A stretch of 48,815 nucleotides of DNA, taken from NCBI GenBank assembly GCA_001275005.1, contig JWZX01003135.1, positions 1 to 48,815 of the forward strand, in the 5' to 3' direction. How positions within the stretch are numbered: the stretch's first letter is position 1; each line of letters opens with the position of its first letter. This document shows, piece after piece, positions 5,737 through 44,800 of this stretch. The notes under the pieces are model-generated. The model made no database searches and was not told the origin of the DNA. It saw only the letters and a program-made list of their open reading frames with translations. The DNA comes from Chrysochromulina tobinii (Eukaryota). Made by a program: the position numbers and the translations under genes.

Positions 5737-5794
5737 GACTTGACTAGACTTGACTAGACTTGACTAGACTTGCCTTGACTTGACTTGACTTGAC
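5737..5794 (+). repeat. (GACTT/GACTA)n pentamer microsatellite upstream of the 5866 gene
   Basis: gacttgactagacttgactagactt...gacttgacttgac read directly. Confidence 0.85.
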
Positions 5795-5865
5795 ATGCCT
5801 TGGCTTGCGTTGTGACTGTTCGACGTTCTTGAGGAATTTGCAACTCTCGCGAAGTGGACGTCCAC

Positions 5866-8201: not shown

Positions 8202-8236
<35 letters not shown>

Positions 8237-14336: not shown

Positions 14337-14860
14337 CAACCAAGTAAACCCCAAGACTCCAAACTTGCCTTCGCGTTGTACGAGATTGTACGAGACTCAC
14401 CCCCGTGCACCGCCGCGATTTACATGTACTTTGATGTCCCCAATACCCAAACCAGGGGCCGTCCCCAACCAAGTAAACCCCAAGACTCCAAACTCGCCTT
14501 CGCGTTGTACACCCCCGTGCACCGCGATTTACAAGTTTGTAGTAGGCGTTCCGTTCCGCAACCATTCCAATGCCTACCTTTTATCTTGCTCCACCAACCC
14601 TCGTGGTCTCCAATAAACTGGGCGAGAAACTGGGCGAGATTGCCTTACTGGGCGACCGCCGACCGGTACTTTGCGACGGTACACTTTGCGACCGGTACTG
14701 TGCGACGTTGTGTCTCCAAACCAGGGCTGCCGTCCCCAACCAAGTAACCCCCAAGACTCCAAACTCGCCTTCGCGTTATACGATTTACATGTGCGTAGTA
14801 GGCGTTTCGTTCCGCAACCATTCCAATGCCTATCATTAATCTTGCTCCACCAACTCTCGC
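14337..14860 (+). repeat. Three degenerate direct repeats (~90-155 bp), possibly the body of a non-autonomous element
   Basis: Core caaccaagtaa.ccccaagactccaaact.gccttcgcgtt at ~14337, ~14466 and ~14737. Copies 2 and 3 also share gtagtaggcgtt.cgttccgcaaccattccaatgccta...atcttgctccaccaac. Confidence 0.85.
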
Positions 14861-15039
14861 CGTGGTCGTAGTCGAGATCGAGCTGATGACGCAGCTCATC
14901 ATCTTGATGGCCTCGTGTCCTCATAGGCGAGATCGGGCTGATGACGTGTCCTCCTAGGCTGATGACGTGCTCATCATGAGAGCACGAGGCCGTCAAGCTG
15001 ATGAGGCGCCATCAAGCTGGTGAGGTCATCAGGCGGAGT

Positions 15040-15648
15040 TCACAGGGCTCCGACGAGATGAGGCGGAGGCGGGGGGACCCCGCACGGCAGGCAGACCCGA
15101 GGCTTGCCGAACACGCATTTCTTATCAAGAGCGCCGAAGGAGCTGAAGAGGGTACGGAAGAGCACGAAGGTATTCTCAATGTCGGCCACGCCCACCTGAT
15201 GAGCGAGGCCATCGGGGAGACACACTCAGCGCCGTCATCATGGGGGCTCCGGCCATGTAATCTCCGGAATCTCGGGGACGATCTCGGGGAGGAAATCTCG
15301 GGGATGCAATCTCGTGGACGCGATCTCGGGGATGCGATCTCGGGGATGCAATCTCGGGGGCGCAATCTCGGGGATGCAATCTCGGGGATGCAATCTCGGG
15401 GATGCGATCTCGAGGTCCCATCCAGCCCCCTACCGTCTCCCGGATCGAATGCATCGACCAGCACGCGGCGCCGAGGTCGACAGTTCGAATGCCCGTGCGG
15501 CTCGAGATGATCGGACCAATCGTCGATCCGCATGGGCAGTCGTTCTTCACCATGAACTCCTGCGGGTCCTCGTGGGCCATCAGTGGTCATCAGAGTGCAT
15601 CAATGGTCATCAGAGCAGCAGCAGCACCACCACCACCAGCAGTGGCAG

Positions 15649-15689
<41 letters not shown>

Positions 15690-16659
15690 CCACCACCACC
15701 ACCACCAGCAGCAGCAGCAGCAGCAGCACCAGCAGCACCAGCAGTGGCAGCAGCAGCAGCAGCCGCAGCAGCAGCAGCAGCAGCAGTGGCAGCAGCAGCA
15801 GCAGCAGCGTCACCTGCACGCTGATACCAGCACGGCGCGCGAGCTCGCGCACGACGAAACCACTCTCGCCGTTGGTCGCGTAGCGCTGGTTGTCGTTCGT
15901 CTTGATGACAGTCCCCTTGTTCAGTTTGGGCGCGTGTGCCGACTGGCAGAGGTCGAGGAGCGGCTCAATCAGTCGAAATCAGTCGAAATCAGTCGCGATC
16001 AGTCGCGATTGGTCGCAATCGGTCGCAATCGGTCGTAATCGGACGCAATCAGTCGCAATCAGTCGCGATCAGTCGCGATCAGTCGCAGTCGGTCGCAATC
16101 GGTCGCAAGCAGTCGCGATCAGTCGCAATCGGTCGGAATCAGTCGCAGTCGGTCGCAATCGGTCGCAATCGGTCGCAATCAGTCCACCTGGTGCTTCTCC
16201 GCGTAGTTGGGATGGACGGCGTGCGCAGCGTCCGCCGAGATGAGAAAGCTGCGACGGTTGGACATCAAAAGAGACTCGGCGGCGGCGTGCGGCTCGTCCG
16301 GGGCGAAGCATGACGAGACGCGCTGCATGGACTCACTCATGATCGGTCCACCGGCGCCCGTGGTCGAGTCCGAGCCCACCTCTTCATGATCGAACAGTGC
16401 GACCATACACACATCGTCTGCGCTCGGCGGGGCCTCGTCCGCATGCACCATCAGCGCACGCAGCGACGTGTAGCAGTGTAGCAGGTTGTCGAGGCGAGGG
16501 GCCGAGAGGAGCTCCGAGCGCAGACCCCAGATCTGCGACGGCTGCGTGTCGCACAGCGTCATCTCGAAGTCGAAGATCGCCCCGATCTCGCAGTCGAGCT
16601 CGGCCGCGAGGACCTGCAGCAGCTCCGGGCAATGGCGTTCGTCCATGCCCGGCTCGGCC

Positions 16660-16691
<32 letters not shown>

Positions 16692-17306
16692 CTCGGCCGC
16701 CGCGGCCGCGGGCTTGTTCACTGCCTCGGAGATCAACCCGAGGATCGGTTGCAGGTGCGTCTCGGGGTTCGGCGCAAACTTGCCGCGCTCGTCGGCGGAC
16801 GTCAGGTGGATACACAGGTTGGGGATGCGAAGCAGCGGCCGGCGCACGTGGACGAGCTTCTTGGCAAAGGAGCCGTCCGCCTCCTTGACGATCACGGATC
16901 CCGCGAGGCTCAGCTCGCGGTCGAACCACGTGTGCCACAGCCCGCCACCGTATGCCTCCACGTTGATCTGGATGCACCCGTGGGCGCTCTTCTTGGAGCA
17001 CGGCTTGAGCTTGAGCACGGGCGAGTCCGTGTGCGCGCCCACGATGTTGAAGCCATTACCCGCCGCAAACGCCGCGCCGATGAAGAAGGCCACGAGCGTG
17101 CCGCCCCGGACGAAGAAGTACTTGCCGCCCGGCTTGAGCAGCGGACGCCACGCGTCAGTCTCCACAAGCTCGACAAAGCCCGCCGCGAGCAGCATCGCGC
17201 CCCCCTTGGCGCACATGTGGAAGGGCGTGGGCGAAGCGTCGATGAACGTGATCAGTTCCTCCGCGAGCAAATGCGCCGTGGCCATCGGAGGAAGCCCTGT
17301 CGCCAT
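15040..17306 (-). CDS. DNPEP: Aspartyl aminopeptidase (peptidase M18), 4 exons: 17306-16188, 15942-15814, 15559-15434, 15195-15040 (~509 aa)
   Basis: M18 motifs [80 protein letters not shown]. Three phase-0 GT-AG introns join them in frame. Confidence 0.95.
15196..15433 (-). other. DNPEP intron 3 with 14-mer tandem repeats (gagattgcatcccc)
   Basis: ACG|gtaggg ... gatggcctcgctcatcag|GTG. Confidence 0.85.
15560..15813 (-). other. DNPEP intron 2 composed largely of a (CTG/GTG)n triplet tract
   Basis: CAG|gtgacg(ctg)n ... ctctgatgaccactgatggcccacgaggacccgcag|GAG. Confidence 0.85.
15943..16187 (-). other. DNPEP intron 1 with 10-mer tandem repeats (gattgcgacY)
   Basis: CAG|gtggactgattgcgacc ... 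cctctgccag|TCG. Confidence 0.85.
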
Positions 17307-18047
17307 GTTTCCGAGCAGGCGCAATAATTACATCCCTCATCAAGGGGGCGTCGCGGCCTTTTCGTTTCCCCTTAGAGCGGGGGGCCTGTCGCGAGCTGCT
17401 GCCGGCGAAAATTCCACGTCTGTCACGTCGAGTGCACTATTCGGGACTACTACAGACTGAGATAGATTCGTACTACGAAGTCAGTAACTATGCTGTATTT
17501 CTCAGAGAAGCCCCAGGATTATAACCACACATGAGATTCAGTTCAGTTCAGTTTCTTCGCGGTCCCCCCACGCTCACTCCACCACCGTCTCAACGGACGG
17601 CTCCGCTCCCCTCGGTCAACACAAGTACCTGAGTACTCGCTCGCTCGGGCTACTCAATTTCGCATTTTTCGCTAGTGAGGTCGGTCTCTCCCAGCACACA
17701 GTGTGATCTCTGGTGCTCGCTGCCCTATACTACCAGGCGGGATTGTGACAGGCAATCAGGTGGGGGGTGGGGGGAGGGGTGGGGGGTGGGGTTTTGTCAA
17801 CCGTCATCATATCTCTGCCGTCGTTGTAACAAGCCTCGAACTTCCAAAAACCCAGTCGCTCCACTCCCACGCGTTTTCATACACCCACGCCGCTCGCAAG
17901 TTCCGCGCGTGCCGGTTTACGCGCTCGCAGCTTCACGCGGAGATGCACTCACACGTGGCCAGCCGGCAAGCGCCAATGCAGTCTGGGGCTCCGCCTCTAG
18001 ATGCGATCTCGAGGGCTTGAGGAGCGATCTCGATGGCCGAGGCCAAT

Positions 18048-19268
18048 TCAGTCAGGGGCTCGGCCGGCTCGGGTGAGCAGGCGGCGCGTCTCGTAGTGCA
18101 GCGCTGCCTCGGCGGCTTTGTCGCCCATCAGGCCGAAGCTATGCGAGCCGTGGATCCGCAGCGCCGTCAGAGGGACGCCGTCACGCCGCAGCAGCCGCAC
18201 CAACTCATACCCCTCGTCACGGAATGGGTCGGCGAGCGCGACAGCGACGACCGCCGACGGAAGACCCTTGAACGAGCCCGCGAGCAGGTTAAAGCGGGGA
18301 TCCGCCGAGTCTGCAGCACGTCGTGGCGAGTAACACTCCCACCAGAGCTGCATGATAGTCGTCGGCAGAGCCGCAAGGGTGCCATAGTCGCGAAAGCTCT
18401 GTGATGTCATCGACGGTGCCACCATCGGGACCGCCGCGACGACGCCGCGCACGTCGACGCCGTGCTCCACTGCTGTCCGGGCGCCCACGAGCGCCAAATT
18501 GGCGCCAGCGCTGAGGCCCCCCAGCACGATTCGAGTCGGGTCGATACGGAGCCGGGTCGCGTGCTGCGCCAGGTGCTGCACCGCGTACCACGCATCGTCC
18601 GGGGCGGCCGGGAAAGGGTGCTCCGGCGCGAGCCGGTACTCGACGCTCGCCAGCACCGCGCCGCTCCATGTCGCGGTGCGGCGCAGGCCGGGACCCCACA
18701 TGGCCACGTCGGCCCCGGCTGCCTCCCCGACCACCATCCCGCCGCCGTGAAACATTATGAAGAGCGGTAGCACTTCGTCGTCACCTGCCTCGCGTGGGCG
18801 ATACATTCGCACCTCAAGGTCACGCCCACCTTCCTGGTCGTGTGGCGGCCGGTGCACGAGCTCCATCTCGCACTCGCGCCACTTGCCGGCTTTCAGCTCA
18901 CCCTGCACAGCAACAGAACTCATCGCGTTCATGGAGTTGGCAGCGGCGCGGATTTTCGAAGCGTCGCGGTGGGAGTGAAGCCGCGCCATGCGAGGCATGA
19001 AGCCGAGCATGTGGAACGCGCAGCACAGGGCGTTGTCAACCACGCTCAGGTCCCTGCACCACGACCACCCATGCAGCAACCAAGCGACGAACAAGCAACT
19101 AACACCGCCGACAGCGGGGAGCCACGCGACGTTTGCGCCGTCGGCGACGCTCGCAGCAAGGCGAGCGAGGACAACGGAACCGGCGGCGGCGAGAAAGGGC
19201 GTGAACGCGACACAGGGCCGCGGTGGCAGCGGCGGTGCGTCGACGTCGAGGTTGCGCTTGGCGCTCAT
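18048..19268 (-). CDS. Alpha/beta hydrolase, HSL/Abhydrolase_3 family esterase-lipase with N-terminal hydrophobic segments
   Basis: Motifs FHGGGMV, VEYRLAPEHPFPAAPDD, GLSAGANLA (nucleophile elbow), ADPFRDEG and GSHSF. Confidence 0.9.
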   Translation of the reverse strand: MSAKRNLDVDAPPLPPRPCVAFTPFLAAAGSVVLARLAASVADGANVAWLPAVGGVSCLFVAWLLHGWSWCRDLSVVDNALCCAFHMLGFMPRMARLHSHRDASKIRAAANSMNAMSSVAVQGELKAGKWRECEMELVHRPPHDQEGGRDLEVRMYRPREAGDDEVLPLFIMFHGGGMVVGEAAGADVAMWGPGLRRTATWSGAVLASVEYRLAPEHPFPAAPDDAWYAVQHLAQHATRLRIDPTRIVLGGLSAGANLALVGARTAVEHGVDVRGVVAAVPMVAPSMTSQSFRDYGTLAALPTTIMQLWWECYSPRRAADSADPRFNLLAGSFKGLPSAVVAVALADPFRDEGYELVRLLRRDGVPLTALRIHGSHSFGLMGDKAAEAALHYETRRLLTRAGRAPD

Positions 19269-19348
19269 CAACTCGAGAAGCGAGCAGCTGGCCGCCCTGT
19301 TCGACGAAACACAATTCCATAACAGGCAAGTACAGGAGAGAGTTTGGG

Positions 19349-29500: not shown

Positions 29501-30504
29501 AAGAGAAGCTCGCGGAGTCGCAGCAGAAGGTGAAGGAACAGCGCTTTCAGATGGCGAAGGCGATGCACGACACCGAGGAGACGAGATTGCAGCTCGAGGC
29601 GCAGATGAACGCTGCCGTGGAAGCCCGCAAGCGCGCGTCCGAACAGTTGAGGAAGCAGCAAGAGAAGTTGGAGGAATCGAAGCGCGAGCTCAACTCAGCG
29701 CTCGAAGCCAAGGCTGCGCTCGGCAAAGGTAAAGCGAGCACCCTGTGGAATCTACTTCGAAAGGATATACGCGACAAGGCCAAGATGAACCGACGCAACT
29801 CAGAGATGTTCCACGGCCTGAAGCGCCAGTTGACAATGATGGCCCTTCCAGCAGAAGCATTGGAAGAGGTGCAAGAGGTTGTGGAGGAACCGGTCGAGGA
29901 GGTGGTGGTGAGGGCGAAGACCCCCTCTCCGGGCACGCGCTCGCCCAAAGATGTAGATCAGTTCCGGTACATCTTGAACCTGAATGCGGCCACGCTGCTG
30001 CCCAAGATGAAGGAGTGGGTCGGGCCGCGAGAGTCGTGGGGCCTCAGGGTACAATCCGACGTGACGTCCACGTTGAAGGCCTGCGAGCGGCTCGTCCAGT
30101 TCTCTGACCCTCGGCTGAAGGAGGATCGCAAGATGGCGCTCGAGCTCGGTGGGATCGATGTTCTTGCTGATGCCATGCGCAAGGCCGCGGTGAGCGGGGC
30201 CGAGGAGCCGCTTGTGATCGCGTATGCCTTTGAGGCCGTGAGGGCGATCATCTCGGGCACTAAGCAAAAGGAACTCGACAAGGTGATGCAGGGGCCCGCA
30301 GCAGACGCCATCCCGGGCGTGATTCAGGGGGCGAACGCCGTCCTCGATCTCATGCTCCTCAGTGTCGTGCGCTTGATCACCAAGGACAATTACGACAGGA
30401 CGGCGTACGCGCTTCGCACAAACTGTCCGGTTGCGTGGCTCGACCCCGAGTCCAAGATCCCCATCGGAGAAGATGGAAAACTGGCGCCCATGAAGAAGAA
30501 ATGA
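26557..30504 (+). CDS. Large coiled-coil protein with a central R-S-E type mono-ADP-ribosyltransferase domain
   Basis: LRLYTGPMFVKYNSTLR, KVYR, GFMSTT and SQYPAEEEILLPPFTALEV (~28740-29250), flanked by coiled coils and a helical C-terminus. Start codon uncertain. Confidence 0.85.
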   Translation: MHATPEIGQFPLQQLLQQVMVRWAASPNQLPPFLSTEPFAWREIEPLDGEWREIEHEPLGGWGRGASAPVTPRKNSPRTPGGGVGRGSLSNPIRPRGAVSPLVSTATLRTSLSPMRRGRSPASPSPLEPSPPPGHRPPMLLPPSPRPWTTTASPTELSGAYADVGAGERQSRGLPKPDFDGGVIYVPPHTPLNKIPSRKNGLLARNSSSGNGLAALNTEGRGLARMPSPARGLARAVSPPRLPAGINVHAAPAVRGENVQQKVRERFERLELECELLQSDVSEVEGRLVELGEETRCLREGEVVPIALLEQLITHVEEDVIQKESDYARYRDQIEDVLREEGECHVAILWREIGVAEQTAADLRARLEALEARDAATSSGVAIAEEQATLMASVIDDVLGDLDADEVEEEEEVSGGSSSRPSSATSGADDPESIPAPPPGWNLEKWLSGYSFDKIVSDAILARIRAKLPAGQNTARFEQAFMLKLNRAGSRDLLVALLQETPVLYQIADMIVKGASGLQSEIDAAEEDKRAAAAEALVNAPVIDAVTAARLKNEDFQKAGAFTLTYATEPEFFFQGVGRVTGPPTSQLEMGTFEAMEAEHCDFADSPLPFDPGNYGYSTTAPVEWNFVVDPLMKTEQASNVLARVAAKLQALVNSTNSAAPTQVLHGWSNARQVFSTRGSRGFRDAWPGTEGRAVNRVARPLSFFAKKRAEIDAKLIKIGEQATSDEELFALRLYTGPMFVKYNSTLRGARAKGTAIEFMYTRWWDLCRGNTYSTTLHVISAAIVKLSKITQASKVYRAPGGALPPSFWHRNATSGVQGGLECGFMSTTLNKEEAMKYARRAPGAVLFEIDQGFVARGASVSWLSQYPAEEEILLPPFTALEVANIQIEGAVVVCQLRPSLSSAVAASGLRTGADDIVAMQKMRENLREKAALDKLDTQMKIAREQQRLNEERGRWRAESAYQAKVASLRMNALRRREAQLEEKLAESQQKVKEQRFQMAKAMHDTEETRLQLEAQMNAAVEARKRASEQLRKQQEKLEESKRELNSALEAKAALGKGKASTLWNLLRKDIRDKAKMNRRNSEMFHGLKRQLTMMALPAEALEEVQEVVEEPVEEVVVRAKTPSPGTRSPKDVDQFRYILNLNAATLLPKMKEWVGPRESWGLRVQSDVTSTLKACERLVQFSDPRLKEDRKMALELGGIDVLADAMRKAAVSGAEEPLVIAYAFEAVRAIISGTKQKELDKVMQGPAADAIPGVIQGANAVLDLMLLSVVRLITKDNYDRTAYALRTNCPVAWLDPESKIPIGEDGKLAPMKKK

Positions 30505-30848
30505 GGCGGCTGCCGCGCGTGGTGCGAGGAGGCGTGTGTGCGAGGGCTGGTGCGTGTGCGGCAGAGTGGAAAGTGGAATCATCACGTGGCGGCGTGTGGT
30601 GTGTGTGCTCAATAGCAAGTGTGTGGGTGGGCGAGCAGCAAGATAATTACATGATGTTCTGCGTATACTAACGTAATACACTTACGTAATACACTTACGT
30701 TAGGCGTTCGCTCCTAGAGTGTCCTGACTTTTCATCTTCTATCTCCTGTCCCACTCCTTAAAGTAGTAATACCTTCTGCTAATCATTCGCGTTTGATTTT
30801 CACGACATTTGTCATCATTGCGCAGTTTTCTCCGCTCGGTATCTTTAC

Positions 30849-33119: not shown

Positions 33120-33654
33120 TCACGCTCGTTTGCAGCCTGTGCTCCGTGCGCTGAGGGACCGGCTGCCCAAGAGTTTCCTTCAGGGGAGACTCGAGACTGC
33201 AAAATGCTGCATGCATAGAAAAAGTACTTGTGCACAAGTCGCAACTATACAATCTCACAACCGCTTCATTGATTGTGCTGATACTCGAACGCCGCGCGAC
33301 GATTCCTATACTGATTTCCACTCCGCCAGTCCGCCGACTCGCGACTGCGTCTGTCGCACTGTGTGAAGATGCTCAGGTTCGCGGTTCGCAGCCGGGTGTG
33401 CGCTCGTATCTGTGTGTGCGCGAGAACTGACTCCGTCAGACCGTGCGCTTCTCCGCCCCATAGTACCATATTACTGGCCGACGTGAAACCGACGGTAGGC
33501 CTCTGTCGCCAGCTCGATGACAGATGCTGCCAAAGGCAGATGTGCTTCACGCTGGGAGCGAGCTACGGCAACGGCGAATGGCCCATTATAAGTCAGAATC
33601 TCATAAAGGTATGTGGCCATAGACGGCATTAGGCCGCGCTTCGTGCGCATGCAA

Positions 33655-34560
33655 TCAAAGACTTGCCCGACGCCGCCGGCCACGTGATTTTGCCGATCCG
33701 CTCGAGAGCTCGACTTTGCTGATCCCTTTCCCGCCTTCTTGTTGGACCCGATGAGACGAAGATTTGGTGGTTTGGTTCTTGAGTCGGCCATTTGACGAAT
33801 GTTTCTGGCTCTTGTTGTGATGCACGAAGGCGGTTGAGGCCGGGCTAGCGCGCAGCTGAGTGAGGCTGTCCTCGTCGCCGCCAGCACCGAGGCCAGTCCG
33901 GCCAGAGAACCCCTGCCGACTTACCTGCCGACACTGCTCGCGCAATTGCCCGAGCTCTAACTCAAGGGCTTCCCGTTGGCTGATTAATCGCTTGTGCAGC
34001 TGCATCACCTCCTTCTGCGCCGCGCATAAGCGCAACCACGGTACTAGGGTGCCATAGAGGAGGCCGCCGCAGACTGTGAACAATAGAATTCCGAGGAGCA
34101 CGAGGGCGAGCAACCGCCTCGGCGCGGCCGCAGCAGTACGCTCCTTGAGCACCACGGAGGCCACTTCCTGGGGCAGCACTTGAATTCTGAGTGTGGTCGC
34201 CGAGCGGATGAAGGTCGAGGCCGCATCGGCGGTCATGCTCGACTCGCCGCCAATCCCGTTGATGGAGTAGATGACGTCCCCTGGTTGGAGCAGGCCGGCG
34301 GCGGGCGATTCGGGAGAGATCTGTACCACCACAAGCTGCGGCGGGGGGACGTCTACAAAGTACGAGAGGAACCGGTCGAGGCACGAGCCGCTGTCGCTGG
34401 TCAGTCCGATGCCAAGCGGCGCACCAGCCTGCTTGGGAGGGATCTCGACGGTAACGGGTTCATGGTCGTCATCGTCCACAGCGGAAGCAGCAGTTCCTCC
34501 GTCCGTTTGTTCGTCAGACCCTTGAACTTTGTTGTACTCGTATTTCGTTCCAGCCACCAT
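33655..34560 (-). CDS. PDZ domain + single TM + coiled-coil protein
   Basis: PLGIGL...VVQISPESPAAGLLQPGDVIYSING, then hydrophobic LLALVLLGILLFTVCGGLLYG, then a heptad-rich tail. Confidence 0.8.
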   Translation of the reverse strand: MVAGTKYEYNKVQGSDEQTDGGTAASAVDDDDHEPVTVEIPPKQAGAPLGIGLTSDSGSCLDRFLSYFVDVPPPQLVVVQISPESPAAGLLQPGDVIYSINGIGGESSMTADAASTFIRSATTLRIQVLPQEVASVVLKERTAAAAPRRLLALVLLGILLFTVCGGLLYGTLVPWLRLCAAQKEVMQLHKRLISQREALELELGQLREQCRQVSRQGFSGRTGLGAGGDEDSLTQLRASPASTAFVHHNKSQKHSSNGRLKNQTTKSSSHRVQQEGGKGISKVELSSGSAKSRGRRRRASL

Positions 34561-34958
34561 TCAGATCCACACGAGCTGCCTCGCCTTCGACGACTCGCGC
34601 GCGCGCGCCTCAAGCAAAACGTGGATGCGAATCGTCGCCCGGAACTGCAGCCCGGAACGCAGTTCAGGATGACGAAACTGATGCGTTGTGATGACACGGG
34701 AGCATGCATGTTCGATGTGTCAACTGGATCTGGATCATCATCATCTGGAGTCCAGACGATCCAATTCCAGAAGATTTGGATCGAAAACTGTTTCAAAGTG
34801 CTGAGTGGCCGCGAAATTTTAATGATTTGAAATCATCTCGGGTCGTGATCTGGGAGGTGCGGTGGTCGGCGTGCCGTCGACTTCAATGCAGCGCAGCATG
34901 GCAGCATCAAACATTCAAACTTCCCGGCCTGTCTCTCTCAATGTAAGTAGGTAAAATT

Positions 34959-37192
34959 TCACACATGTATACGTGGACCCACTTGTGCTCTGCTGTCGTG
35001 CATGCCGCAAAGCTCCAGATATTCGTTCGCCAGGCTCTCGATCCTCTGTAGCTTGGACTCGAGGGCGTCGAAACGGGCGGCACTGAGAGCGGCAATGTCG
35101 GTGGCTCCTCGTGTGAAGGCTGCCTCCTTCATCTCCTCGACGCGCAGCTCCATCCCCCGAGTCGCGCTCGCGGCCTCAACCTCCTTGATTCGCTTCTCTT
35201 CGGCATGCAGCTGCTTTCGGCGACGGGCTGATTTGGTCTTCGGCTCTGGGGAGCCGGGCGACACCTGATGAAGGAGGCCATCAGTGATCATCAGAGGCAA
35301 TCAGAGGCAATCACGTGCACTGGGGAGCCGGGCCACACCAGATGAAGGAGGCCATCAGTGATCATCAGAGGCAATCAGGCCGCACCGGCGTATTCGCCTC
35401 CAAAGCCTCCATTTGCCGCCGAGCCTGGGCGTCAATCATGTCGGCAAGCTCCTTGGCGTAGACGGGACGGAAGCGGCCGCGGAACTGATTCCCTTGGGCG
35501 AACGCTCTGGTCTCCGCCTCACGCAAGAACGCGCGCCGAATCATCCACTTGATCTTTGAGACTCGGAAGTGCGCCTTGAACTCCGGGTGCTTGTCGATCT
35601 CGTGGAGCAATGCGGTGGACTCGATCGTCAAGACGGAAAGGTAGGTCACACAGAGCGCGGGCAGCTGGAGCTGCAAATGACGCGGCAACACGACGTCGTC
35701 CCCCCACACGTCGGAGAGGCCCTTCATCTTGCCTCCCCAAAAGGCCTTACCGCTTTGAATGATGTATAAGAATTCCGGCGGGCACAGCTCGCGAGGGGGG
35801 AAGATGAGCGCGTTCAGGCACATCCCCAGGTCGATGATGAGCCTGCCAGGCACGGCGTTCATGTCGCTGAGGTACCAGACCATGTGCACCCAGCGGGCGT
35901 GGATCGCCCAAACCACCTCGAGCTTCATCGAGGGCGAGAGTCTCGAGAGCAGCCTCTTGCGGACCTCGCTGTCGTTCACGGAGCGTTTCTCGAAGAGGTA
36001 CTCGCGCAGCCGGAACTGCAACTCGGGTCGAATGTGATTCTTCGACATGAACGAGTTGAGGCTCGTGAGCTCCCCCTTGAAGATCTTCTCCTGCGGCGAA
36101 GCCTCCGCCGCCAAGTTGCAAAAGGTACCGATGAGGTAGCCCCATAACGCGCCCGATGTGAGCATGATGAAGCAGGCGACCAGCTGCTCAGTCACGTTAA
36201 ACGGCTCCGCAAGAATGTCACCGTAGCCGACCGAGGTGATCGTCATCGCCGAAAAGTACAGGCAGTTCGAGTACATCGTAAAGGGCGCGACGCATTCGTA
36301 GCCGCCTTCGCATAGGCCCCCGATGCACTCTCCCTTGTCGCACACACGCCCGCTCGCGATCACACCTTGAGTATCAGGTGTGCTACTGCAGGCGTCGACC
36401 GCCGCTTCAACGGCGCTCCGGTTGTTATCCTCCCATGCCACGCAGTAGCCGTTTTGCCTCGGCCACGAGTGAAGTGGGTCAAAGGACGCCTCCAATCCCC
36501 AGATGCACGCAAACCAGTGCACGCCGACGATCTGTGCCAGGACAATCTTGACGAGGGCGAGCAGGGCATAGTTAATGGACCAGCTCATTTCCCACTTTCT
36601 GAAGATGCGCGAGCCGCGCGCGAGACGGACGAGCTTTGCCAGGCGCAGCACGCGGATTATACGCAGGGCGATCAAGCCATCGAGCCCCTCGCCCCCAACG
36701 ATGTCGAAGAGGCTCGTGAGGATCGAGAAGAGGTCGATGTAGAACCATGAGCTGCGCACGTAGTGGAAAGCGATGGCCCCTGGATCGGTGATCCATGAGG
36801 CCCCTTTTATGAGATCGATGCGCAGGAACGCGGTTCGGAATTGCATCAACATATCCATGATGAAGATGATGTCAACGCAGCGATTGAGGAGGAATACAGT
36901 GTCGCTCCATCGCTCACTCGGGCTGAGTTGCGCAAGGAAAGCCACCTCAAAGGGTGTGACGGCTGCAGTGTATATCAGCGCAACCGAGGTGACGAGATCC
37001 CAGTACTGCGAACAAGTGGCCTTGCGCGGGTCCTGCGGCCAAAAAATCACGGTCGAAGGTGAGGCAGAGGCAGGCAGCCGAAGGCAGCATAGGGAGAGCG
37101 CTTACGATGACCCAAACATATCGCAGGGTCTGGCTCCATGACTTCGGCTTGGCCTTCGGTAAGAGCACAAGGCCGCTAGCCTGGATCGACAT
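34959..37192 (-). CDS. 6TM voltage-gated K+ channel (EAG/CNBD-type) with degenerate cyclic-nucleotide-binding domain; exons 37192-37106, 37032-35386, 35264-34959 (~679 aa)
   Basis: S4 segment LRIIRVLRLAKLVRLAR, pore TITSVGYGD, C-linker LQFRLREY. Introns 37033-37105 (ATC|gtaag...ccgcag|GAC) and 35265-35385 restore one frame. Confidence 0.9.
35265..35385 (-). other. Intron (121 nt) containing a duplicated acceptor + exon start
   Basis: 35320-35378 duplicates 35246-35304 with 2 mismatches, one changing AG to TG. Confidence 0.85.
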
Positions 37193-37261
37193 CGTCAGGG
37201 TGCTCTCCGCCCTAAACGCTAAGGATACGGCGTTGCGGATGGCCACCAAAAATCATGTCTA

Positions 37262-37300
37262 GACAAGTCAAGTCAAGTCAAGTCGAGTCGAGTCAAGTTG
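37262..37300 (-). repeat. (GACTT/GACTC)n pentamer microsatellite upstream of the K+ channel gene
   Basis: Plus strand reads caagtcaagtcaagtcaagtcgagtcgagtcaagt. Confidence 0.8.
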
Positions 37301-37471
37301 AGACAACGGGGTGTTTGACTCGTTGTTTGTTTTCCCCCTTTGTAATAATCAATTCTCAAAAGGGGGCGCGCCGATTCATACTTTTCGTGCACCTTTCTGC
37401 CTTCACACCGCGCTCCCAACGGCCTTGTTGACGTCGATCTTCGCGCTGCGAACGCTGGCGAAAGCGGCAAG

Positions 37472-38164
37472 ATGGTGAAGAGCAACTTCGTCCGCGCCTC
37501 TGCAAGGTCTCTGCATGTAGCCAGCGACATCGCCGATCTCGAAGCCTCAATAGCAGTTCAGCGGCAGCATGGGATCAGCAAAGCGATGCCCAAATCCGTA
37601 ATGCCATGCCACATCGGGCGAGCGGGCCAGACTCTGAGCCAGCGCAATGACGCCCGCCTTGTTGGTCGCCGTGCAAGCTTGAAGCTCGATGAAAGCGATG
37701 AAGAGCGAGTCGAGTGCTTTATCAAGGCATTTGCAGGCGGCCGGTGCCTCGTCGTTGAGCCGGGAACTGGCCGGCAGGTCTGGTTCCCATCACCTGCAGT
37801 GCGAAGGGCAATGCTTCCCGAGGTCGACAGCCTGTGCGACTTGCTCGCTGGCATCCCACTTAGCAGCGCCGCCGCTTTATCAGCACAGCGCATGGACTTC
37901 ACGGCGGCTAGCGGCGGCACTGGTTGCAGCCACTGGCCCTGCGGGGCAGGTCCTTCGTCGTCGACTGCAGCAGTACCGTTCTCAGTCACAGCCAGCGCTT
38001 CTGATCCGAGTACCGCTGATCTGCTTGCGCGGCCAACGACCATGGAGCTCGCCCTCGCTACCGGCAGCTATCCGCCACCGCCACGAGTGTCGCAGCCGGC
38101 ATTGCAACCGAGGATGACTGACAACGCAGAGGACACAGAAGATCAAGGTCATAATGATCGATGA
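37472..38164 (+). CDS. Hypothetical protein (230 aa)
   Basis: ATG-initiated ORF divergent from the channel gene. No recognisable motif. Confidence 0.3.
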   Translation: MVKSNFVRASARSLHVASDIADLEASIAVQRQHGISKAMPKSVMPCHIGRAGQTLSQRNDARLVGRRASLKLDESDEERVECFIKAFAGGRCLVVEPGTGRQVWFPSPAVRRAMLPEVDSLCDLLAGIPLSSAAALSAQRMDFTAASGGTGCSHWPCGAGPSSSTAAVPFSVTASASDPSTADLLARPTTMELALATGSYPPPPRVSQPALQPRMTDNAEDTEDQGHNDR

Positions 38165-38869
38165 TGCCATTCTTTTAGCAACAGGGCCACATGAACGCGG
38201 CCCGCGCGTGAGTTCTGAGTGATGGGTACTCCTGACCTACCGTACATTTGTGTCGCATGGCCATAGGCTTGAAGACATCGTGGTCGGTTGTAATCCCGGC
38301 GCGTTAAACGCGGGTAACTGTGGGCGCGGGCGGTTGCTCCATGCTCGCGACACGCGAGCCCGGAGCGCGACGCGACGGAACGTTTTCGGGTTTACGGCGA
38401 TTCATCATCTGGATCGTTTGACTCGATCGCAATCCGGCAAAGCCTGAGAACAAGGCAGAAGCCGGAACGGCGAACGCGTCACCCTACGACACAGAACATG
38501 CGAACGACAGCGGAACAGGAGCGGCCGCCGCGGGGGCCGATGCGCGGCCGCAGGGCTACGCGGGCGGGACTGCACCGATGCACCGTACGGTACATGAATC
38601 AATCATGAATCAGAATTGCGGTGCGGTGGGGGAACGATTTGAAGGGGATGTCAGCGTGAGAGTATGGCACATGCGACATGGGAACCGTGGGGTCAGTACA
38701 ATCATCACCTCATCCGAGCGATCAGGCATCACGATTAGGCATTAGCCCCGTCCCTCCCCCTCCGCTCATCTTATGACCGTTTGATTACTGAGATCAAGAC
38801 TTAATCAAGACTCGCGAGGACCCGCTCTTTCGGTTATGGTCCGTCTTTGCCCTTGGGGGCTTTCGGCTT

Positions 38870-41800
38870 TCACAGCTCTTCTGGATCGATGGCCGGCAGC
38901 TCTTCCTCGAGTGCGGACGCGATCTTTTTCATCGTCCTGTCCAGCTTCGCTTGCTCTGCCGCGGAGAGCTCCTTGTCCGCGGCGAGCTTCGGCGTCACCG
39001 TGAAGGACACCTGGCGCTTGATGATGAACTCTGCGCGCTGGCGTGCGCGCTGGCGGCGGCGCTTGTCGAGCTCTTTCTTGTCGATCTTGCCGTCGTGGTT
39101 TGAGTCAAGCCGATCGAGGATGAGGCTTAGAAGCATTTCGAGCCATGGCGCAAGAGGCTGATCTGAGGTCTCCTCACGGTCAAAGGACATTTCGGTGCCG
39201 CGCTTCTCAATCAGCACGCCGCCCTCGTGCTTGCCAGCCGCGATCTCGTCGAAGAACTGCTTGGCGGTGCGCGAGCCATACTTGGCGAGGATCTCGGTCG
39301 TCGGCAGCGGGTGGCGAGTGCACACCCGGCCGAGCGCCTCACAAAAATCGATGTACGTGAGCCTCGTGAGCTTATGGCGCCGCTTCAGCTCGTCGGACAC
39401 AAAGGTCTGCGACCAGACGAAGCAGAGGCGCTCGTCGAGCCGAGAGAGGTAGCCCATCCACATGCTCGCTCCTTCGTCGGGGCTGTCGCGCGTGTCGAGC
39501 AGCCCCGCGTCGAGGCAGAAGCCATGCCACTCGTCGAGCGACATCGTGGGCTCGGGGGTCTTCAAGTCTAATTGCAGCGGATCGCCTTCGATGGTCGCGT
39601 AGTACTCAAAAAAAGTACGGAGCACAGGCTCGAAGCGCTTGAGGACGTCCGCCACCGGCTTGGTGTAGAGCCGCTTGCGACGGAAGACCTCGGGGTCGTG
39701 TGTGGCGCCCTTGGGCAGGTTGGGCAGCAGGTCACGCTGCAGGAAAGTCTCGAGCGCATCGGACACATCGGGGATCGTGCCGTCACGCACGTACTTGGAG
39801 ATCGAGATGCGCACGAGGCACTGCATGAACTCGAAGCGCAGCAACGCAGCGTCCGGGTTGAGGCGCTCGATTTCGCGGTCCTCGAGAGTCTTGGAGGCCG
39901 CCTCATAATTGGCCGAGGCAAAGATGCGTGTGAGCTCCTGAACGTTCAAGTAGGCGGAGTCGATGTCGACGACGCGCACGTCGCGCAGCAACTCGAAGAA
40001 GGTGGACAACCCCATCGCGTACCCATCGTGCGCGTCGCCCGTGGCGCAGTAGTACGTGTGGCACGCGTAGATGGCAGTCGCGTGCTGCGCGAGCACCTCG
40101 CGGATCTTGCCGATCTCGGCGTCCACGCCCGCGAGCCCGAGCCCCTCGTGGTCCTCCCGCGCGATCAATCTGCGGAAGCGATCGGTGTTGCAGCGGCTCC
40201 AATCGATCTGGAAGGCGCGGCTCCTGACTTGGCTCGTATTGTAAAACGAGTGCGCGTCGGAATGACTCCTGCGCGGCGCGAAGACGGAGCGGTCGAGTTC
40301 GAGAGAACCATCCTTGGCAGACTTGCTCGGCTCCTCGCCCGACTCGTCCTTTGGCACACAGTGGAAGAGGATGGGCTCGGATACAATCTCGCCAAACATG
40401 GGTGGGAACGTGCAGTCCTCGAGCAGCGACTTACGGGGCTGCGGGGGTGAGAGGACCGGCGATTGGGTGAGCTTGGGCACGTCTCGCTCCGTCAGCATCG
40501 GCGGCATCGGCGGCGCCGGCAGGGTCGTCGAGCTCTCACCACACTTGAGCTGCCCGAGCGACGTCGGCAGTTGACCGACCGGTTCTCGCTCGGGCACGCG
40601 GCAGTTGCGCGGGTGGCTCGTATGGTACAGCCGCAGCACCTTGCCCTCGGTACCCTCGAGAGGGTACGACGAGAAGTTGTCGTTGCCGATCCTCGAGCCT
40701 GCCACACCAATCCAGCTGAAGAGCTTCGCCTGCGGGCCCGAGCGCTCGGCGCGGCCCTCGGGGTTCCCGGAAAAGGAGAAGCGCGGTGTGTACTGCTCAG
40801 CCTCGGGCAGGATGACCTTGTAATCAGGGCGCGCCTCGTTCCCTTTTTGGAGGTACGCCTTCTCCCATGGCTCTAGCGTTGCAGCGAGCTCCGGCTTGAT
40901 GGAAGGCACCCCCTTTTGAGTGATCTTGATCTCAACCACGGGCGGCCTCCACTGGTTGCCCACCCGGGCCGTCTCCTCCGCCTCCGCCTGCTTGGCCAGC
41001 GCAGCCGCCTTCGCTATTCCGAAAAGACCGCCCTGCACAGCCCCAAGCCCGGCCTGCACCGCCGCAGACGCCGCCAGCTCCGCCTTCTGGCGCACCGGCG
41101 CGGGACCCTCATATCGCTTGGGCTTCGTCTTCGCGCCGCCCACCGCACCCGCTGCCGTCGCGGGGCGCGCCGCCTCCGCCGCCGCCTTCTCGTCGGCATC
41201 CTTTGCAAATGACTGCCTCCGCTTCAGATCATCGAGGCGCGCGGCGCTCCCTGCTGCCTCTTTCTCGGCGTCCGAGAGCTCATCGCTGCCACCGCCCTTC
41301 CCCTTCTTCTTCCCCTTCTTCTCCTTCTTCTCCTTCTCGATCACAATCTCGCTCTCGAGCTCCTTCATCCTCGCTTCCAAGCGCTTCAGCTCCTCCTCCT
41401 CCCCGGCCGTGAGATGCCCTTCTGCGGCTGCGCCGAGGCCGAGGCGAAGAAGGCTGCCCATCGCGGGCTTTCGCAGGATCGGCATCGACGCGGAGAGGCC
41501 AAGGCCAGGCGCCGCCACGGGCGCCGCCACGAGCGCCGCCTCGGTCGCCGCGACGGATTGGCTGAGAGGCGCCGTGTCGGGCGCCGTGTCGGTCCCGGCA
41601 CCGCCCTTGGCTGCTAAGATGTGCCCAAACCTTTTGGTCGTCGCCGGCGGCGGTGTCGCCGACGGCTTGAGTGGCAGTGCCGGCCCACTGCCCCCCTTGG
41701 AGACACCGCCAGGCGTGCCCCCGGCCTTGGCCCCCCGCACCACCCGGCGTCTTAGGACGAGCGTCGTGATGGGCGCCACCCGGCGTCTTCAGGCGAGCGT

Positions 41801-44800
41801 CACCCGCCTGGCTAGCGCCGTGTTGGGCGCCAGGCGCGGGCGTGCCCGGCTTGCTGATCGGCGTGAGCGGGACCACGGGCCGCTTGGGCGCGCCAGGAGG
41901 CACTCCCATCGGAGGCTCGAGAGGCTTGCGCCAGACGTCGAGAAAGTTTCGGCGCATCAGCTCCTGCAGTCCGGCACTACTGGTGCTCGGGCGCAGCGCC
42001 TTGCCCGCCGCGCCCGCCGGCAGTGCGCCCTGCTCCTCCGGGGGCGGCGCCAGGAGCGAATAGTCGACCTTGGGCTTCAGGAGGCGACGGCGCGAGGCGG
42101 CACCGCCGCGCAGCTTGTCGGGTCCCTTGGCCTTCTCGAGCAGCTCGAAGAAGGTCTCGAACTCCTGACGCGAGACGGCGTCGGAGCCGTCCGAGTCCAT
42201 GACCTTGAACAACTCATCGAAGGCGTTGATCTGCTCCTGCAGGTCGACGCCCGTGACCGAGTTCTTCGCCGTGCCGCTCAGCGGGAGGAGTGGGAGGAGC
42301 AGCTCACGCACCCGCTCGTCCTGACGAAACGCCCGAATCATCTCGAGGCGGGTGAGATCGCCGTCGTCGTTCGCATCCATCAGCGCGAACGCCGCACGTG
42401 CCAGCAGCACCTGCTGCGGCTCCTCCCCTGCATTGAGCTCGGCGAGGCCCTCGATGTCCTCGCCCTCGGCCGCCTGCTGCTCGGCCTTCTCAGTCTCCTC
42501 CATAGAAGCGATCCAGTCGAGGTAGCGCTGGCGAGCGTCGGGCGGCGCCGCCTTCTCAGCCGGCGCGACGGAGGCAGTGCTCGGCTTGCGTCCCAGGCCA
42601 CCGCCCGGCGAACCGGGTGCTGACGGAGTCGCACCCTCTGGCACGGCGGCGGCGGGCGCAGGCGCGGCGGCGGAGAGCAGCGGCGGCTTGAGGAGCGGCT
42701 TGCTCGGCGCGTTCGCGAGACCGTCTATCCTAAGCGGCCCCCCAGACCACACCGCCGTCTTGAGCGAGAGCTCAGCCACGTACATAGGGTTACGGTTGGC
42801 CGGGTGGGTGGCGAGGTTGTAGAGCGTCTCTCCCGCCATCTCGCCCAGCGGCCGCAGCGCCCCTTCCCAGCCGAACTTTTCGCTCGTGTGCCGGATCTCG
42901 AGCAGCGAGCTCAGCCCATGCACTTGCACCGCCACCTGGGCGCAGCGGGCGCCCGAAAGATTGAGCACCGCATTGAGCGCATCGCGTAGCAGCTCGGGAG
43001 CGTGCCCCTCATAATGCGCTTGCGCTGCGCGCGCGTGCGCCGGCCGCTGATCGTGCTCCTCGAGCACGTCTTCACCAACGGCCGTCGTCATCGTAGGAGG
43101 AGGGGGCGCACCGCTCGGCACCAGTGAAGCGCCGGCTTCGGACGGCACGTCATACGGCGGCACGCTGAGCACGGTGAGGAGCGCGGCTGCCTCGGTCCGC
43201 AGCACGGCGCATACCTTCTCGGCCGTCTTTATCGACATGAGCTGCTGCTGGTTGCCGTACTGCGCCGAGCGCGCTATCCCTCGGCAACCGACCGCGCGCA
43301 GCTTGGGCGACGCGTCTGAGAGCAGATGGACCATCAGCACATCCAGCCCGCTGGCCGGCGCATGGCGGGGGCTGCTCTCAGCTGCCGGCTGCTTGGGCGA
43401 CGCGTGTGCCTTGTACGCTGGGTGGGACGAGTCGAGATCCTCAGGATGATGAACGATGGTCTCTACCTGGTGGAGGGTGCACGCCGCCGTGATCCGGGTC
43501 GGCGGTGGCGCCCATGTCGACTTCACCGCGAGCGAGCGTGTGCAGCGCTTGCGTCACACCAAACTGCGCGAGCTGCCCGATGAGGGCGGAGCCGCTGGTG
43601 AGCATGATCGAGATGGTGCCGAGTGAGGCCTTGCGCAGCTGCTCGTGAGCCGTCTGCTGCACCGCGCTGATCAGCGCGGCGGACGCGAGGCCCAGGGCCA
43701 CCGTGGCGCTCGCCGGGCGCACGCATAGCTGCCAGAGTGCGATCGCGCACCACGTGGCCAGAGGCGCGTGCGCGCCCTCGAGCTTCGCCTCGCTCACCTG
43801 TGGGAACAAGAGGGGTGGGGGCGCCGTGGTGAGCACTTGCATGCGAGCCAATCGGAAGGGAAGCGCCCTCGAGCTTCGCCACGCTCACCGCGAGCGCGAA
43901 CGCCCGGCTCAGCGCGTCGGTCACCCCGATCTCGAAGAGGAGATCGCAGAGCGCGTGGCTCAGCTGCCCCTTGGAGGGCCCTTGGTTCGCATGCAGCCAG
44001 AAGAGCGCCGCGAGGCTCATGCCTCCTGTGGGCGAGAGAGGCAACTCGGTGACCAGCCGCGACAGAAGCACGCGGCTCAGGGGTGTGAAGGTTGCCGTGC
44101 TGGAGGGGCCGACGCCGGACGTTGACGGTCGCTTCGTGGCGAGATGGGAGACGGGCCGAGAGACTGGTTGAGGAGGGGGCTGCGAGGCGGCGGCGGCGGC
44201 CGCTCGCGTGGCGTCGTCTGCGAGCGCCTCGTGCCCGTGCGCGACGAGAGTGAGGAGGGCGGCGGCCAGGTGGCCATGTAGCGCGCGCACGCTCCCGGTC
44301 AACTCGACGGTGCAAGGGAAGGGCTCCTCGGTGGAAGGAGTGCCTTCCTTTGCGCTGCTACCCTTGGCGCCACTGCCGCCCGTGACGGCGCTGCCGCCCG
44401 TGACGGCGCTGCCAGGCCTGGCCGCACTACCGGCAAGGGCTGAGGGCACCGCTTCCCGGCTCGCAGGCCGGCTATCGGGCTTCGGATGATAGTGCGCCTG
44501 CCGGTCAGCCTCCATGCGCACCACGCCCATCAACTCGATGATGCGCGCGATACCGTTGGCGCGGCGCAGGGCGAGGACCGCCACCTTGCTCAGCGCCACG
44601 AGCGACGCGCCATACACCTCGCACGCGCGCCAGCCTGCCGCGGGGTCCGTTGGCTTGACCCGCTCGACGGTGTTTCGTTTGAATTGGGCCAATTCGTCAA
44701 TCGGCTTCGGAGGCGCGGGCTTGATCGCCGCCTCGAGGGAGCTGAGCAGGTCGATCGCCACCGTCTTGGCCGCATACAGCGACACGCCACGCAGCGCGCC

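What the first reader, a model, noticed from the sequence alone, without database searches (positions are those of the whole stretch)
15196..43888. Candidate intron-generating system: exon-edge duplication + branch-point-like repeat array + shared 3' splice cassette
Seen: introns in four unrelated genes share a design. Several contain a near-exact 12-30-nt copy of the adjoining exon edge (20769-20844, 20086-20180, 21996-22196, 43798-43888), and that copy usually supplies the GT or the AG. Most are filled with 10-mer arrays built on CTGAT (ctctgatgRc, ctctgattgc). Four introns in three genes end in nearly the same cassette. cactgatggcctccttcatcag is identical at 20086 and 35265, with variants gattgcctccctcatcag (20769) and gatggcctcgctcatcag (15196). 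Established: CTRAY is the branch-point consensus, and described Introners typically have short fixed-length TSDs, often with TIRs. Inference: variable, long duplications with no TIRs fit staggered-break repair or target-primed insertion of a templated repeat cassette that is spliceable at once. Exact duplications imply recent events. I cannot confirm whether this is already described for this lineage.
Basis: partly seen in the sequence, partly recalled or inferred. Interest (0 to 1): 0.9.

Follow-up and report, generated by a model that had tools for sequence, protein, structure and literature searches.

The report
Self-copying introns with long target duplications
In a haptophyte alga, many short introns are bracketed by a 13-55-base copy of the gene's own sequence and filled with pieces shared with other introns, and they likely arise when a staggered DNA break is repaired by copying part of an existing intron, which would be a genome-wide route to new introns.

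Summary
Observation confirmed and extended. The window is from the haptophyte Chrysochromulina tobinii. RNA contigs join across three family introns directly; the rest are supported by reading frame, homologs or partial RNA contigs. Removing one copy plus insert restores the frame (19 of 20). One site is empty, with a single copy, in a 98.7%-identical relative. Junctions show microhomology, fillers are heterogeneous and sometimes match a neighbouring intron, and the duplication can supply GT, AG or both. Not a classical introner: no fixed TSD, no TIRs; a published screen lists 0 families for this species. Best reading: microhomology-primed copying of existing intron pieces into staggered breaks in genes (0.5); rival: target-primed retroposition (0.3). 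No enzyme found. The scan noted this family before at another locus (e1-2577349).

The parts
15040..17306 (-). Aspartyl aminopeptidase (M18) gene, 4 exons, 509 aa
   Evidence: the spliced product aligns without gaps to homologs across all three junctions
15196..15433 (-). Intron with 14-mer array, ending in a cassette A variant (15196-15213); no exon-edge copy
15560..15813 (-). Intron with long CTG triplet run and a few decamers; no exon-edge copy
   Evidence: RNA contig tails of 257 letters = 129 + 126 + 2
15943..16187 (-). Intron filled with a locus-specific decamer array; no exon-edge copy
19349..23076 (-). Gene with an N-terminal TPT-family transporter domain, 7 exons, about 945 aa; retaining any one of its six introns gives an early stop
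19724..19806 (-).
   Evidence: RNA contig X13 record 4 joins 19723 to 19807
20056..20085 (-). Exon copy of the 30-nt duplication of intron 20086
20086..20180 (-). Intron: donor at 20180 or 20162, exact 30-nt copy (20142-20171), decamers, cassette A (20086-20107, identical to 35265)
   Evidence: an RNA contig starts at 20086, another covers 20111-20261 unspliced; present in L093
20740..20768 (-). Exon copy of the 29-nt duplication of intron 20769
20769..20844 (-). Type I intron: exact 29-nt copy (20816-20844) gives the GT, then decamers and cassette A (20769-20788)
   Evidence: partial RNA contig X13 record 5 fits the spliced form; present in L092; 186 DNA contigs have loose ends before 20766-20768
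21124..21370 (-). Intron filled with decamers; no exon-edge copy
   Evidence: partial RNA contig X14 record 12
21612..21799 (-). Intron filled with decamers, with an internal degenerate copy of the 3' junction region (10 nt exact)
21996..22196 (-). Type II intron: decamer filler gives the GT, a 12-nt copy (21996-22007; exon copy 22197-22208) gives the AG
   Evidence: RNA contigs stop or turn at 22196
35265..35385 (-). Intron of an ion-channel gene: two cassette A units (the upstream one with a dead AG, 35339-35356) separated by a 19-nt exon-edge copy (35320-35338; exon copy 35246-35264)
   Evidence: 121-nt CT..AC joint in 3 of 4 RNA runs
37033..37105 (-). Ordinary intron of the same gene, with no cassette and no duplication (internal control)
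   Evidence: 73-nt joint in 3 of 4 RNA runs
43772..43797 (-). Exon copy of the 26-nt duplication of intron 43798
43798..43888 (-). Type I intron: 26-nt copy (43863-43888, 1 mismatch) gives the GT, an 18-nt unrelated spacer, then cassette B (43798-43844)
   Evidence: 91-nt CT..AC joint in 1 of 4 RNA runs

Best explanation
These are spliced introns bounded by a long, variable duplication of the host exon, and they likely form when a staggered break in a gene is repaired by microhomology-primed copying of part of an existing family intron, after which selection would keep only the copies that splice out cleanly. Steps: (1, inferred) two offset nicks 13-55 nt apart give the duplication; (2, junction signature shown, process inferred) the broken end pairs by a few bases with a decamer or cassette of a donor intron, sometimes one in the same gene, and is extended on it; (3, inferred) the new strand rejoins the other end; (4, shown for geometry) the product is an intron if the duplication supplies the GT and the insert the branch point and AG (type I), or the insert the GT and the duplication the AG (type II), or the duplication both (type III); (5, shown as strain differences) arrays then change length and whole units multiply between the two copies. 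Every new intron would become a new donor, so no master element is needed. Whether the template is DNA or RNA (nascent transcript, excised intron) is not determined; the strong bias to coding, sense-strand positions suggests a link to transcription.
For: Anchored duplication in 56 of 119 terminal cassette A sites and 13 of 26 cassette B sites; controls 3 of 119 and 0 of 26 (exon +80 nt), 0.3-0.4% (swapped loci). Lengths 13-55 nt, median 25 (43 solo A) and 14-37 (12 solo B). Frame continuous after removing one copy plus insert in 15 of 16 A and 4 of 4 B sites that could be tested (of 43 and 12), and in 29 of 29 type I, 6 of 7 type II, 4 of 5 type III. Empty site: L035 has a 79-nt unit (28-nt exact copy plus 51-nt insert) that L063 lacks, 98.7% identity. 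Microhomology at the copy/array junction: mean 2.6 nt in the 20 of 43 sites whose filler start is in the repeat repertoire, simulated null 1.0, p=5e-5. Three geometries: 72 of 317 clusters pass, 48 I, 9 II, 15 III, chimeric null 3 of 951. Heterogeneous donors: cassette B pyrimidine tracts differ even where the duplication is exact; 4 of 49 same-contig pairs share a 3' end of 30 nt or more against 31 of 6972 cross pairs, permutation p=0.018. Duplication length and insert length are anticorrelated (rho -0.38 and -0.61) with units rarely under 60 nt, as expected from a minimum intron size. Direct repeats from staggered-break repair at new introns are established in Daphnia (PMC4202315, passages).
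Against: The short junction spacers are not copied from the local flanks (mean 3.6 vs null 3.8, p=0.85; 31 of 55 sites), so a common signature of polymerase-theta repair is missing. Random breaks do not predict the location bias: 100 of 119 A sites score as coding in sense (true coding 153 of 175, intergenic 2 of 114 at the same threshold), no array in 5730 nt of window intergenic DNA, no clear antisense copy. Type I inserts end at the cassette AG and are followed by G in 115 of 119, which fits a template with a defined end as well as selection. The local-donor effect covers about a tenth of sites, the rank test is not significant (p=0.20) and cassette B shows none. About half of the terminal sites show no duplication above threshold (63 of 119, 13 of 26). 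Only one presence/absence site was seen and it is not polarised: loss by recombination between the two copies gives the same allele. Two of the 9 type II and several type III calls are mis-typed or tandem units on inspection.
Confidence: 0.5

Rival explanations
1. Target-primed retroposition: a LINE-like or Penelope-like endonuclease and reverse transcriptase copy excised intron RNA (or a tiny SINE-like RNA read antisense: fixed head, decamer tail) into new sites, giving variable long duplications, one precise end and one truncated end with microhomology.
For: Variable 13-55-nt duplications, fixed 3' end at the AG and variable 5' extent; microhomology at the variable end; type II inserts often start at a real donor followed by decamers, and a fuller form with donor, decamers and cassette B recurs at several loci, so insert ends often coincide with intron ends; strong genic sense bias. 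Non-LTR introners are reported (about 5% of classified families, PMC12130899, passages). The TPRT hallmarks are recalled, not from a call.
Against: No reverse transcriptase or endonuclease domain in 12 window ORFs or 71 of 169 long ORFs beside cassette sites (low power). No antisense or intergenic copies, which retroposition should leave. Type III inserts carry neither intron end. No Rfam family at gathering score in 14500-45000. No single master sequence.
Confidence: 0.3
2. Old introns remodelled in place: the intron was already there, and a later local tandem duplication or template switch across a splice site put a copy of the exon edge inside it.
For: Tandem units are common: 12 of 56 duplicated A sites have the cassette directly before the first copy, 65 of 184 A sites are followed by more family sequence, and L022 has two units where L074 has one. 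In the window, 35265 and 21612 hold internal copies.
Against: In 43 A and 12 B solo sites the copy is the very start of the intron and is preceded by in-frame exon; the empty allele in L063 has no intron at all; a 71%-identical homolog that appears to be called on unspliced DNA reads through two of the window's intron positions and is interrupted at two others (P0008; indirect).
Confidence: 0.1
3. A classical introner (MITE-like DNA transposon) family, now decayed.
For: High copy number, genic bias, one splice site carried and one co-opted; introners with 4-bp TSDs are reported in other Chrysochromulina genomes (10.1101/2022.06.06.494994, passages).
Against: No fixed TSD length, no terminal inverted repeats, no end-to-end similarity even among copies with exact duplications; three geometries with different inserts; 0 families listed for this species (PMC12130899 supplement file 7); no transposase found.
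Confidence: 0.07

Closest known systems
Daphnia pulex neointrons from staggered double-strand-break repair (PMC4202315, passages read)
   Same: A direct repeat of the adjacent exon edge at the opposite end of a new intron; presence/absence between strains; later internal repeats.
   Different: Daphnia repeats are 4-12 bp (33 cases among 90 introns) and a source was found for only four inserts; here they are 13-55 nt and the inserts are pieces of a shared intron family with a ready branch-point-like motif and acceptor.
Introners that carry one splice site and co-opt the other from the TSD: Symbiodinium, Polarella classes 4/5/6/8/10/14, Chrysochromulina sp. MAG family 5 (10.1101/2020.10.14.339549, parts 1-2 of 4 read; 10.1101/2022.06.06.494994, passages)
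   Same: Same splice-site logic (types I, II and III all have counterparts), genic bias, phase-0 excess (31:6:11 of 48 sites).
   Different: Those have class-specific TSDs of 3-8 nt, often TIRs, and end-to-end similarity; here the duplication is long and variable and only parts of the intron are shared.
Emiliania huxleyi introner fam24 (PMC12130899 supplement file 8, row seen)
   Same: Haptophyte, class 'Unknown', noted as '10bp terminal direct repeats', co-opts the 5' site and carries the 3' site.
   Different: Five copies, sequence not seen; whether it is the same process is untested. The same dataset lists 0 families for C. tobinii.
Tandem genomic duplication of an AGGT-containing exon segment (PMC3443670, passages)
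   Same: Type III units take both splice sites from the duplicated segment.
   Different: Here foreign, family-derived filler lies between the copies, and most units (types I and II) take only one site from the duplication.
10-11-bp tandem repeats concentrated in E. huxleyi introns (Read et al. 2013; recalled, paper not held)
   Same: Decamer-scale intronic repeats with strand bias in a haptophyte, as recalled.
   Different: As recalled, no link to duplications or intron gain was made; sequence identity to these decamers was not tested.

Membership tests
Introner (MITE-like DNA transposon) | Copies similar from end to end | tested here: not met
   Only 3' or 5' parts are shared; median exact shared 3' end 14 nt (A), 7 nt (B) across loci
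Introner (MITE-like DNA transposon) | Short TSD of family-specific length | tested here: not met
   13-55 nt (43 A), 14-37 nt (12 B)
Introner (MITE-like DNA transposon) | Terminal inverted repeats | tested here: not met
   None at insert ends on inspection; cassette A alone folds into a small hairpin, -1.3 to -6.1 kcal/mol
Introner (MITE-like DNA transposon) | Splice sites carried or co-opted from the duplication, precise splicing | tested here: met
Introner (MITE-like DNA transposon) | Autonomous transposase partner | tested here: inconclusive
   None in 12 window ORFs and 71 of 169 locus ORFs; no genome available
Non-LTR / SINE-like retroposition (TPRT) | Variable-length target duplication | tested here: met
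Non-LTR / SINE-like retroposition (TPRT) | One fixed end, one variable end with microhomology | tested here: met
   Type I sites, (20 of 43 testable)
Non-LTR / SINE-like retroposition (TPRT) | Copies in both orientations and outside coding regions | tested here: not met
   Sense in 105 of 119 and 23 of 26, the rest ambiguous; 0 hits in 5730 intergenic nt
Non-LTR / SINE-like retroposition (TPRT) | Partner RT element with matching 3' end | tested here: inconclusive
   whole genome not held
Non-LTR / SINE-like retroposition (TPRT) | RNA intermediate | not testable with these tools
   Only assembled contigs of RNA runs were available
Staggered-break-repair neointrons (Daphnia type) | Direct repeat of the adjacent exon edge at the opposite intron end | tested here: met
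   longer than the 4-12 bp reported
Staggered-break-repair neointrons (Daphnia type) | Empty allele with a single copy | tested here: met
   1 of 12 sites seen in two samples; direction not polarised
Staggered-break-repair neointrons (Daphnia type) | Unique filler without a common genomic source | tested here: not met
   Fillers are shared decamers and cassettes
Polymerase-theta-type end joining | Junction inserts templated from the local flanks | tested here: not met
   p=0.85, 31 of 55 sites
Tandem genomic duplication | Intron made only of duplicated exon, both sites from AG|GT | tested here: not met
   Foreign filler in all units examined; both sites from the duplication only in type III
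Fungal introner-like elements / reverse splicing | Seamless insertion without duplication | tested here: not met
   absence of duplications in the fungal case from PMC8469720 abstract passage

The most novel reading that the evidence does not exclude
A transposon-free, self-amplifying intron factory: the gene's own nascent or excised intron RNA serves as repair template at transcription-linked staggered breaks, so existing introns seed new ones, often in the same gene, by an RNA-templated route. It is active between strains today, has made thousands of introns, is invisible to introner screens, and may explain the decamer-filled introns of haptophytes generally.
Probability: 0.3. Interest if true: 0.9.

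Novelty: new variant of a known kind. Interest (0 to 1): 0.72.

Why it matters
The source of most new introns is unknown; genome-scale gain has so far been tied to introner transposons, while break-repair gain is known from scattered cases with short repeats and no shared source. Here a cultured alga shows genome-scale gain with the footprint of break repair or retroposition but inserts copied from existing introns, at least one site differing between strains, and a published screen that lists 0 families for the species because it requires end-to-end similarity and drops low-complexity families. If right, intron gain is under-counted in such genomes, and the question 'can repair copy one intron into a new site, and from DNA or RNA' becomes testable by strain comparison and induced paired nicks. 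It also explains faulty gene models: the deposited protein for the aminopeptidase stops at the first of these introns (P0003).

Tried and rejected
Whole-genome count: no genome is held for this window, so all outside numbers come from 143 pattern-selected stretches (about 300 kb with the window). Summed contig depth over arrays (up to 79,787 against about 38) is not used as a copy number. Viral collections: the 4 cassette A hits have no array or duplication and look like chance; the single cassette B hit, L148, looks like an algal gene fragment. Rfam: 5 weak matches, all far below gathering score, including two C/D-box snoRNA matches caused by the decamers: rejected. First de novo duplication scan was dominated by coding repeats and replaced. 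Local templating of junction spacers: negative. Foreign exon sequence between the AG and the second copy: offsets above 2 nt in 6 of 59 significant A sites, mostly explainable as diverged copy starts: inconclusive. Excess mismatches at donor positions 3-6: A 14 of 172 vs 35 of 874 (p=0.028), B not significant: suggestive only. Telomerase-like synthesis: considered from memory, not supported (arrays are locus-specific and many inserts have none). Literature: nine searches found no description of this architecture in haptophytes; subscription papers, bioRxiv supplements, the cut part of the PMC9860276 supplement and files 13-14 of PMC12130899 were not seen and may bear on novelty.
Full report
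Source. The first exon of the gene ending at 17306 encodes an aspartyl aminopeptidase. Its closest named relative is a Chrysochromulina tobinii protein on a contig of 48,815 bases, the window's length (P0003), so the host is this haptophyte. No whole genome was available; outside evidence comes from pattern-selected contigs and coded sequencing runs.

Observation. The duplications are there: exact 29 nt at 20769-20844 (supplies the GT), exact 30 nt at 20086 (starts GA; donor 9 nt upstream or 9 nt inside, both in frame), 12 nt with one mismatch at 21996-22196 (supplies the AG), 26 nt with one mismatch at 43798-43888 (supplies the GT), and an unlisted 19-nt copy inside 35265-35385. Cassette A matches five times against 0 in 100 shuffles. 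The 43798 intron has no decamers; it ends in a second cassette, B, shared with an unlisted intron at 19724-19806. Several introns of these genes have arrays but no exon-edge copy.

Splicing. RNA contigs join across 35265-35385 in 3 of 4 runs and 43798-43888 in 1 of 4, both with CT..AC ends, and across 19724-19806 in one run. Two RNA contigs run on 257 letters past 16188, equal to the two next exons plus two shared bases. The aminopeptidase spliced at 15943-16187, 15560-15813 and 15196-15433 aligns without gaps to homologs; the transporter-domain gene gives about 945 codons with six introns removed and an early stop if any is kept. For 20769, 21124, 21612 and 21996 only partly laid contigs were shown; one contig covers 20111-20261 unspliced.

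Beyond the window. In one DNA run, 86, 65 and 35 contigs have loose ends just before 20766, 20767 and 20768, so the cassette sits beside many different flanks. After removing duplicates and sites with short flanks, 184 A sites remained; 65 followed by more family sequence were set aside, leaving 119. Of these, 56 carry a copy of the downstream exon start anchored at the AG (controls: 3 of 119 with exon +80 nt, 0.3% with swapped loci). For B: 31 sites, 26 terminal, 13 duplicated. In 43 A and 12 B solo sites the copy is 13-55 and 14-37 nt long, 16 of 43 and 3 of 12 are exact, and overall divergence is 54 of 1132 and 22 of 326 nt. A codon model trained on window genes puts the cassette in sense in 105 of 119 and 23 of 26 sites; removing one copy plus insert restores the frame in 15 of 16 and 4 of 4 testable sites. 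None of the antisense calls is clear. 100 of 119 A sites score as coding, close to the rate for true coding windows (153 of 175) and far from intergenic (2 of 114); the genome paper gives 40% coding (PMC4580454, passages).

Geometries. A search not anchored on the cassette found 72 of 317 array or cassette clusters with a duplication (chimeric null 3 of 951): 48 type I (copy gives GT), 9 type II (copy gives AG), 15 type III (copy spans AG|GT); two type II calls are mis-typed and several type III are tandem units on inspection. A separate type II scan gave 38 of 313 arrays against 0.2% (includes some type I and tandem cases). Decamers and cassette B are also joined in a fuller form with its own donor at several loci.

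Strains. Nine overlaps between samples (95.5-99.6% identity) were aligned. Eleven family sites are shared, often with different array length, including the window's 20769 and 20086 (L092, L093). One is not: L035 has a 79-nt unit, a 28-nt exact copy plus a 51-nt insert, where L063 has one copy and no intron; L063 keeps the neighbouring intron and intergenic DNA, so it is not a spliced transcript. The insert shares an unusual filler with the next intron of the same gene. L022 has two cassette B units where L074 has one. Direction (gain or loss) is not shown. A 71%-identical homolog that seems to be called on unspliced DNA reads through two of the aminopeptidase's intron positions and is interrupted at two others (P0008); this is indirect.

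Junctions and donors. Where the filler starts in the known repeat repertoire (20 of 43 solo A sites), the end of the first copy overlaps the repeat by 2.6 nt on average, against 1.0 in a simulation with the same ascertainment (p=5e-5). The remaining sites have short spacers that are not copied from the local flanks (p=0.85). Same-contig pairs share long 3' ends more often than cross pairs (4 of 49 vs 31 of 6972 at 30 nt or more; permutation p=0.018; rank test p=0.20; none for B). The base after the AG is G in 115 of 119 A sites.

Mechanism. Shown: spliced introns, long variable duplications anchored at splice sites, shared but heterogeneous inserts, microhomology, three geometries, sense and coding bias, one empty allele. 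Inferred: a staggered break, microhomology-primed copying from an existing intron, rejoining, and selection for spliceable products (0.5). The main rival is target-primed retroposition of intron RNA or a tiny SINE-like RNA (0.3); it fits the defined ends but should leave antisense and intergenic copies and needs an enzyme, and no RT, endonuclease or transposase domain was found in 12 window ORFs or 71 of 169 long ORFs beside cassette sites (low power). Remodelling of old introns (0.1) explains the tandem units but not the solo sites or the empty allele. A classical introner (0.07) fails on TSD length, TIRs and end-to-end similarity.

Comparison. Introners have class-specific TSDs of a few bases (10.1101/2020.10.14.339549, parts 1-2 of 4; PMC11282704, passages); a Chrysochromulina MAG family has 4-bp TSDs and carries the 5' site (10.1101/2022.06.06.494994, passages). 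The 2025 screen lists 0 families for C. tobinii and, for E. huxleyi, a five-copy unknown family noted with 10-bp terminal direct repeats (PMC12130899, passages and supplement rows). The 2022 pipeline requires whole-intron similarity and removes low-complexity families (PMC9860276, passages and supplement rows), which would hide this system. Daphnia neointrons have 4-12-bp repeats and mostly no known source (PMC4202315, passages). Tandem duplication of AGGT matches type III only (PMC3443670, passages). Small tandem duplications at breaks with complementary overhangs are reported (PMC8355091, search listing only). Intronic 10-11-bp repeats in E. huxleyi are recalled from Read et al. 2013 (not held); PMC2784329 (passages) added nothing on this. 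Nine searches found no description of this architecture; unseen supplements and subscription papers may.

Earlier scan note. e1-2577349 reports the same footprint at another locus of this genome and reads it as a short mobile sequence. I saw it after my own counts; it is not independent support. This report adds splicing evidence, the empty allele, the second cassette, the three geometries, microhomology and local donors, and leans away from a single element.

Verdict. A real, genome-scale intron-forming process that works like an introner in splice-site logic and like break repair in footprint, and is a member of neither family as defined. New variant of a known kind; interest 0.72.

Noticed in passing
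window 9702-9769 (+ strand ORF 5833-10221): Exact 26-nt duplication with a 16-nt spacer whose reverse complement resembles the family repeats; the 42-nt unit is in frame. Possibly an antisense product of the same process kept as coding sequence.
   Followed up: partly
window 6719-6754: Three copies of a 12-mer in the same ORF, in frame, whose reverse complement matches the repeat core of intron 15196.
   Followed up: no
window 14880-15030: Degenerate cassette-like repeats in sense orientation just downstream of the aminopeptidase stop codon.
   Followed up: no
window 41731 and 43496: RNA contigs lack one base at each place in 2 and 3 of 4 runs: probable single-base errors in the window that split one long gene (about 46860 to 38870, minus strand) into several ORFs.
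   Followed up: partly
window 26227-30504 (+): 1425-codon ORF with an ADP-ribosyltransferase domain (Pfam ADPrib_exo_Tox, ART) and coiled-coil-like stretches.
   Followed up: no
window 741-5195 (+): 1484-codon ORF with two blocks of 126-nt armadillo repeats.
   Followed up: no
window 14337-14855: Intergenic mosaic of direct repeats at 129, 256 and 271 nt spacing.
   Followed up: no
window about 17590-17630 and 17750-17800: Short intergenic stretches with very high summed DNA-contig depth, unrelated to the intron family: another dispersed repeat.
   Followed up: no
window 5736-5807 and 37253-37298: Pentamer arrays (TGACT and its complement) near gene 5' regions; the same array appears in L002/L004.
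   Followed up: no
L028, minus strand near position 2488 of the reversed locus: A duplication-flanked intron whose filler contains TTAGGG-like words, a different filler type.
   Followed up: no
L148 (viral contigs): A contig filed as viral carries cassette B with an internal duplication and looks like haptophyte nuclear DNA.
   Followed up: partly
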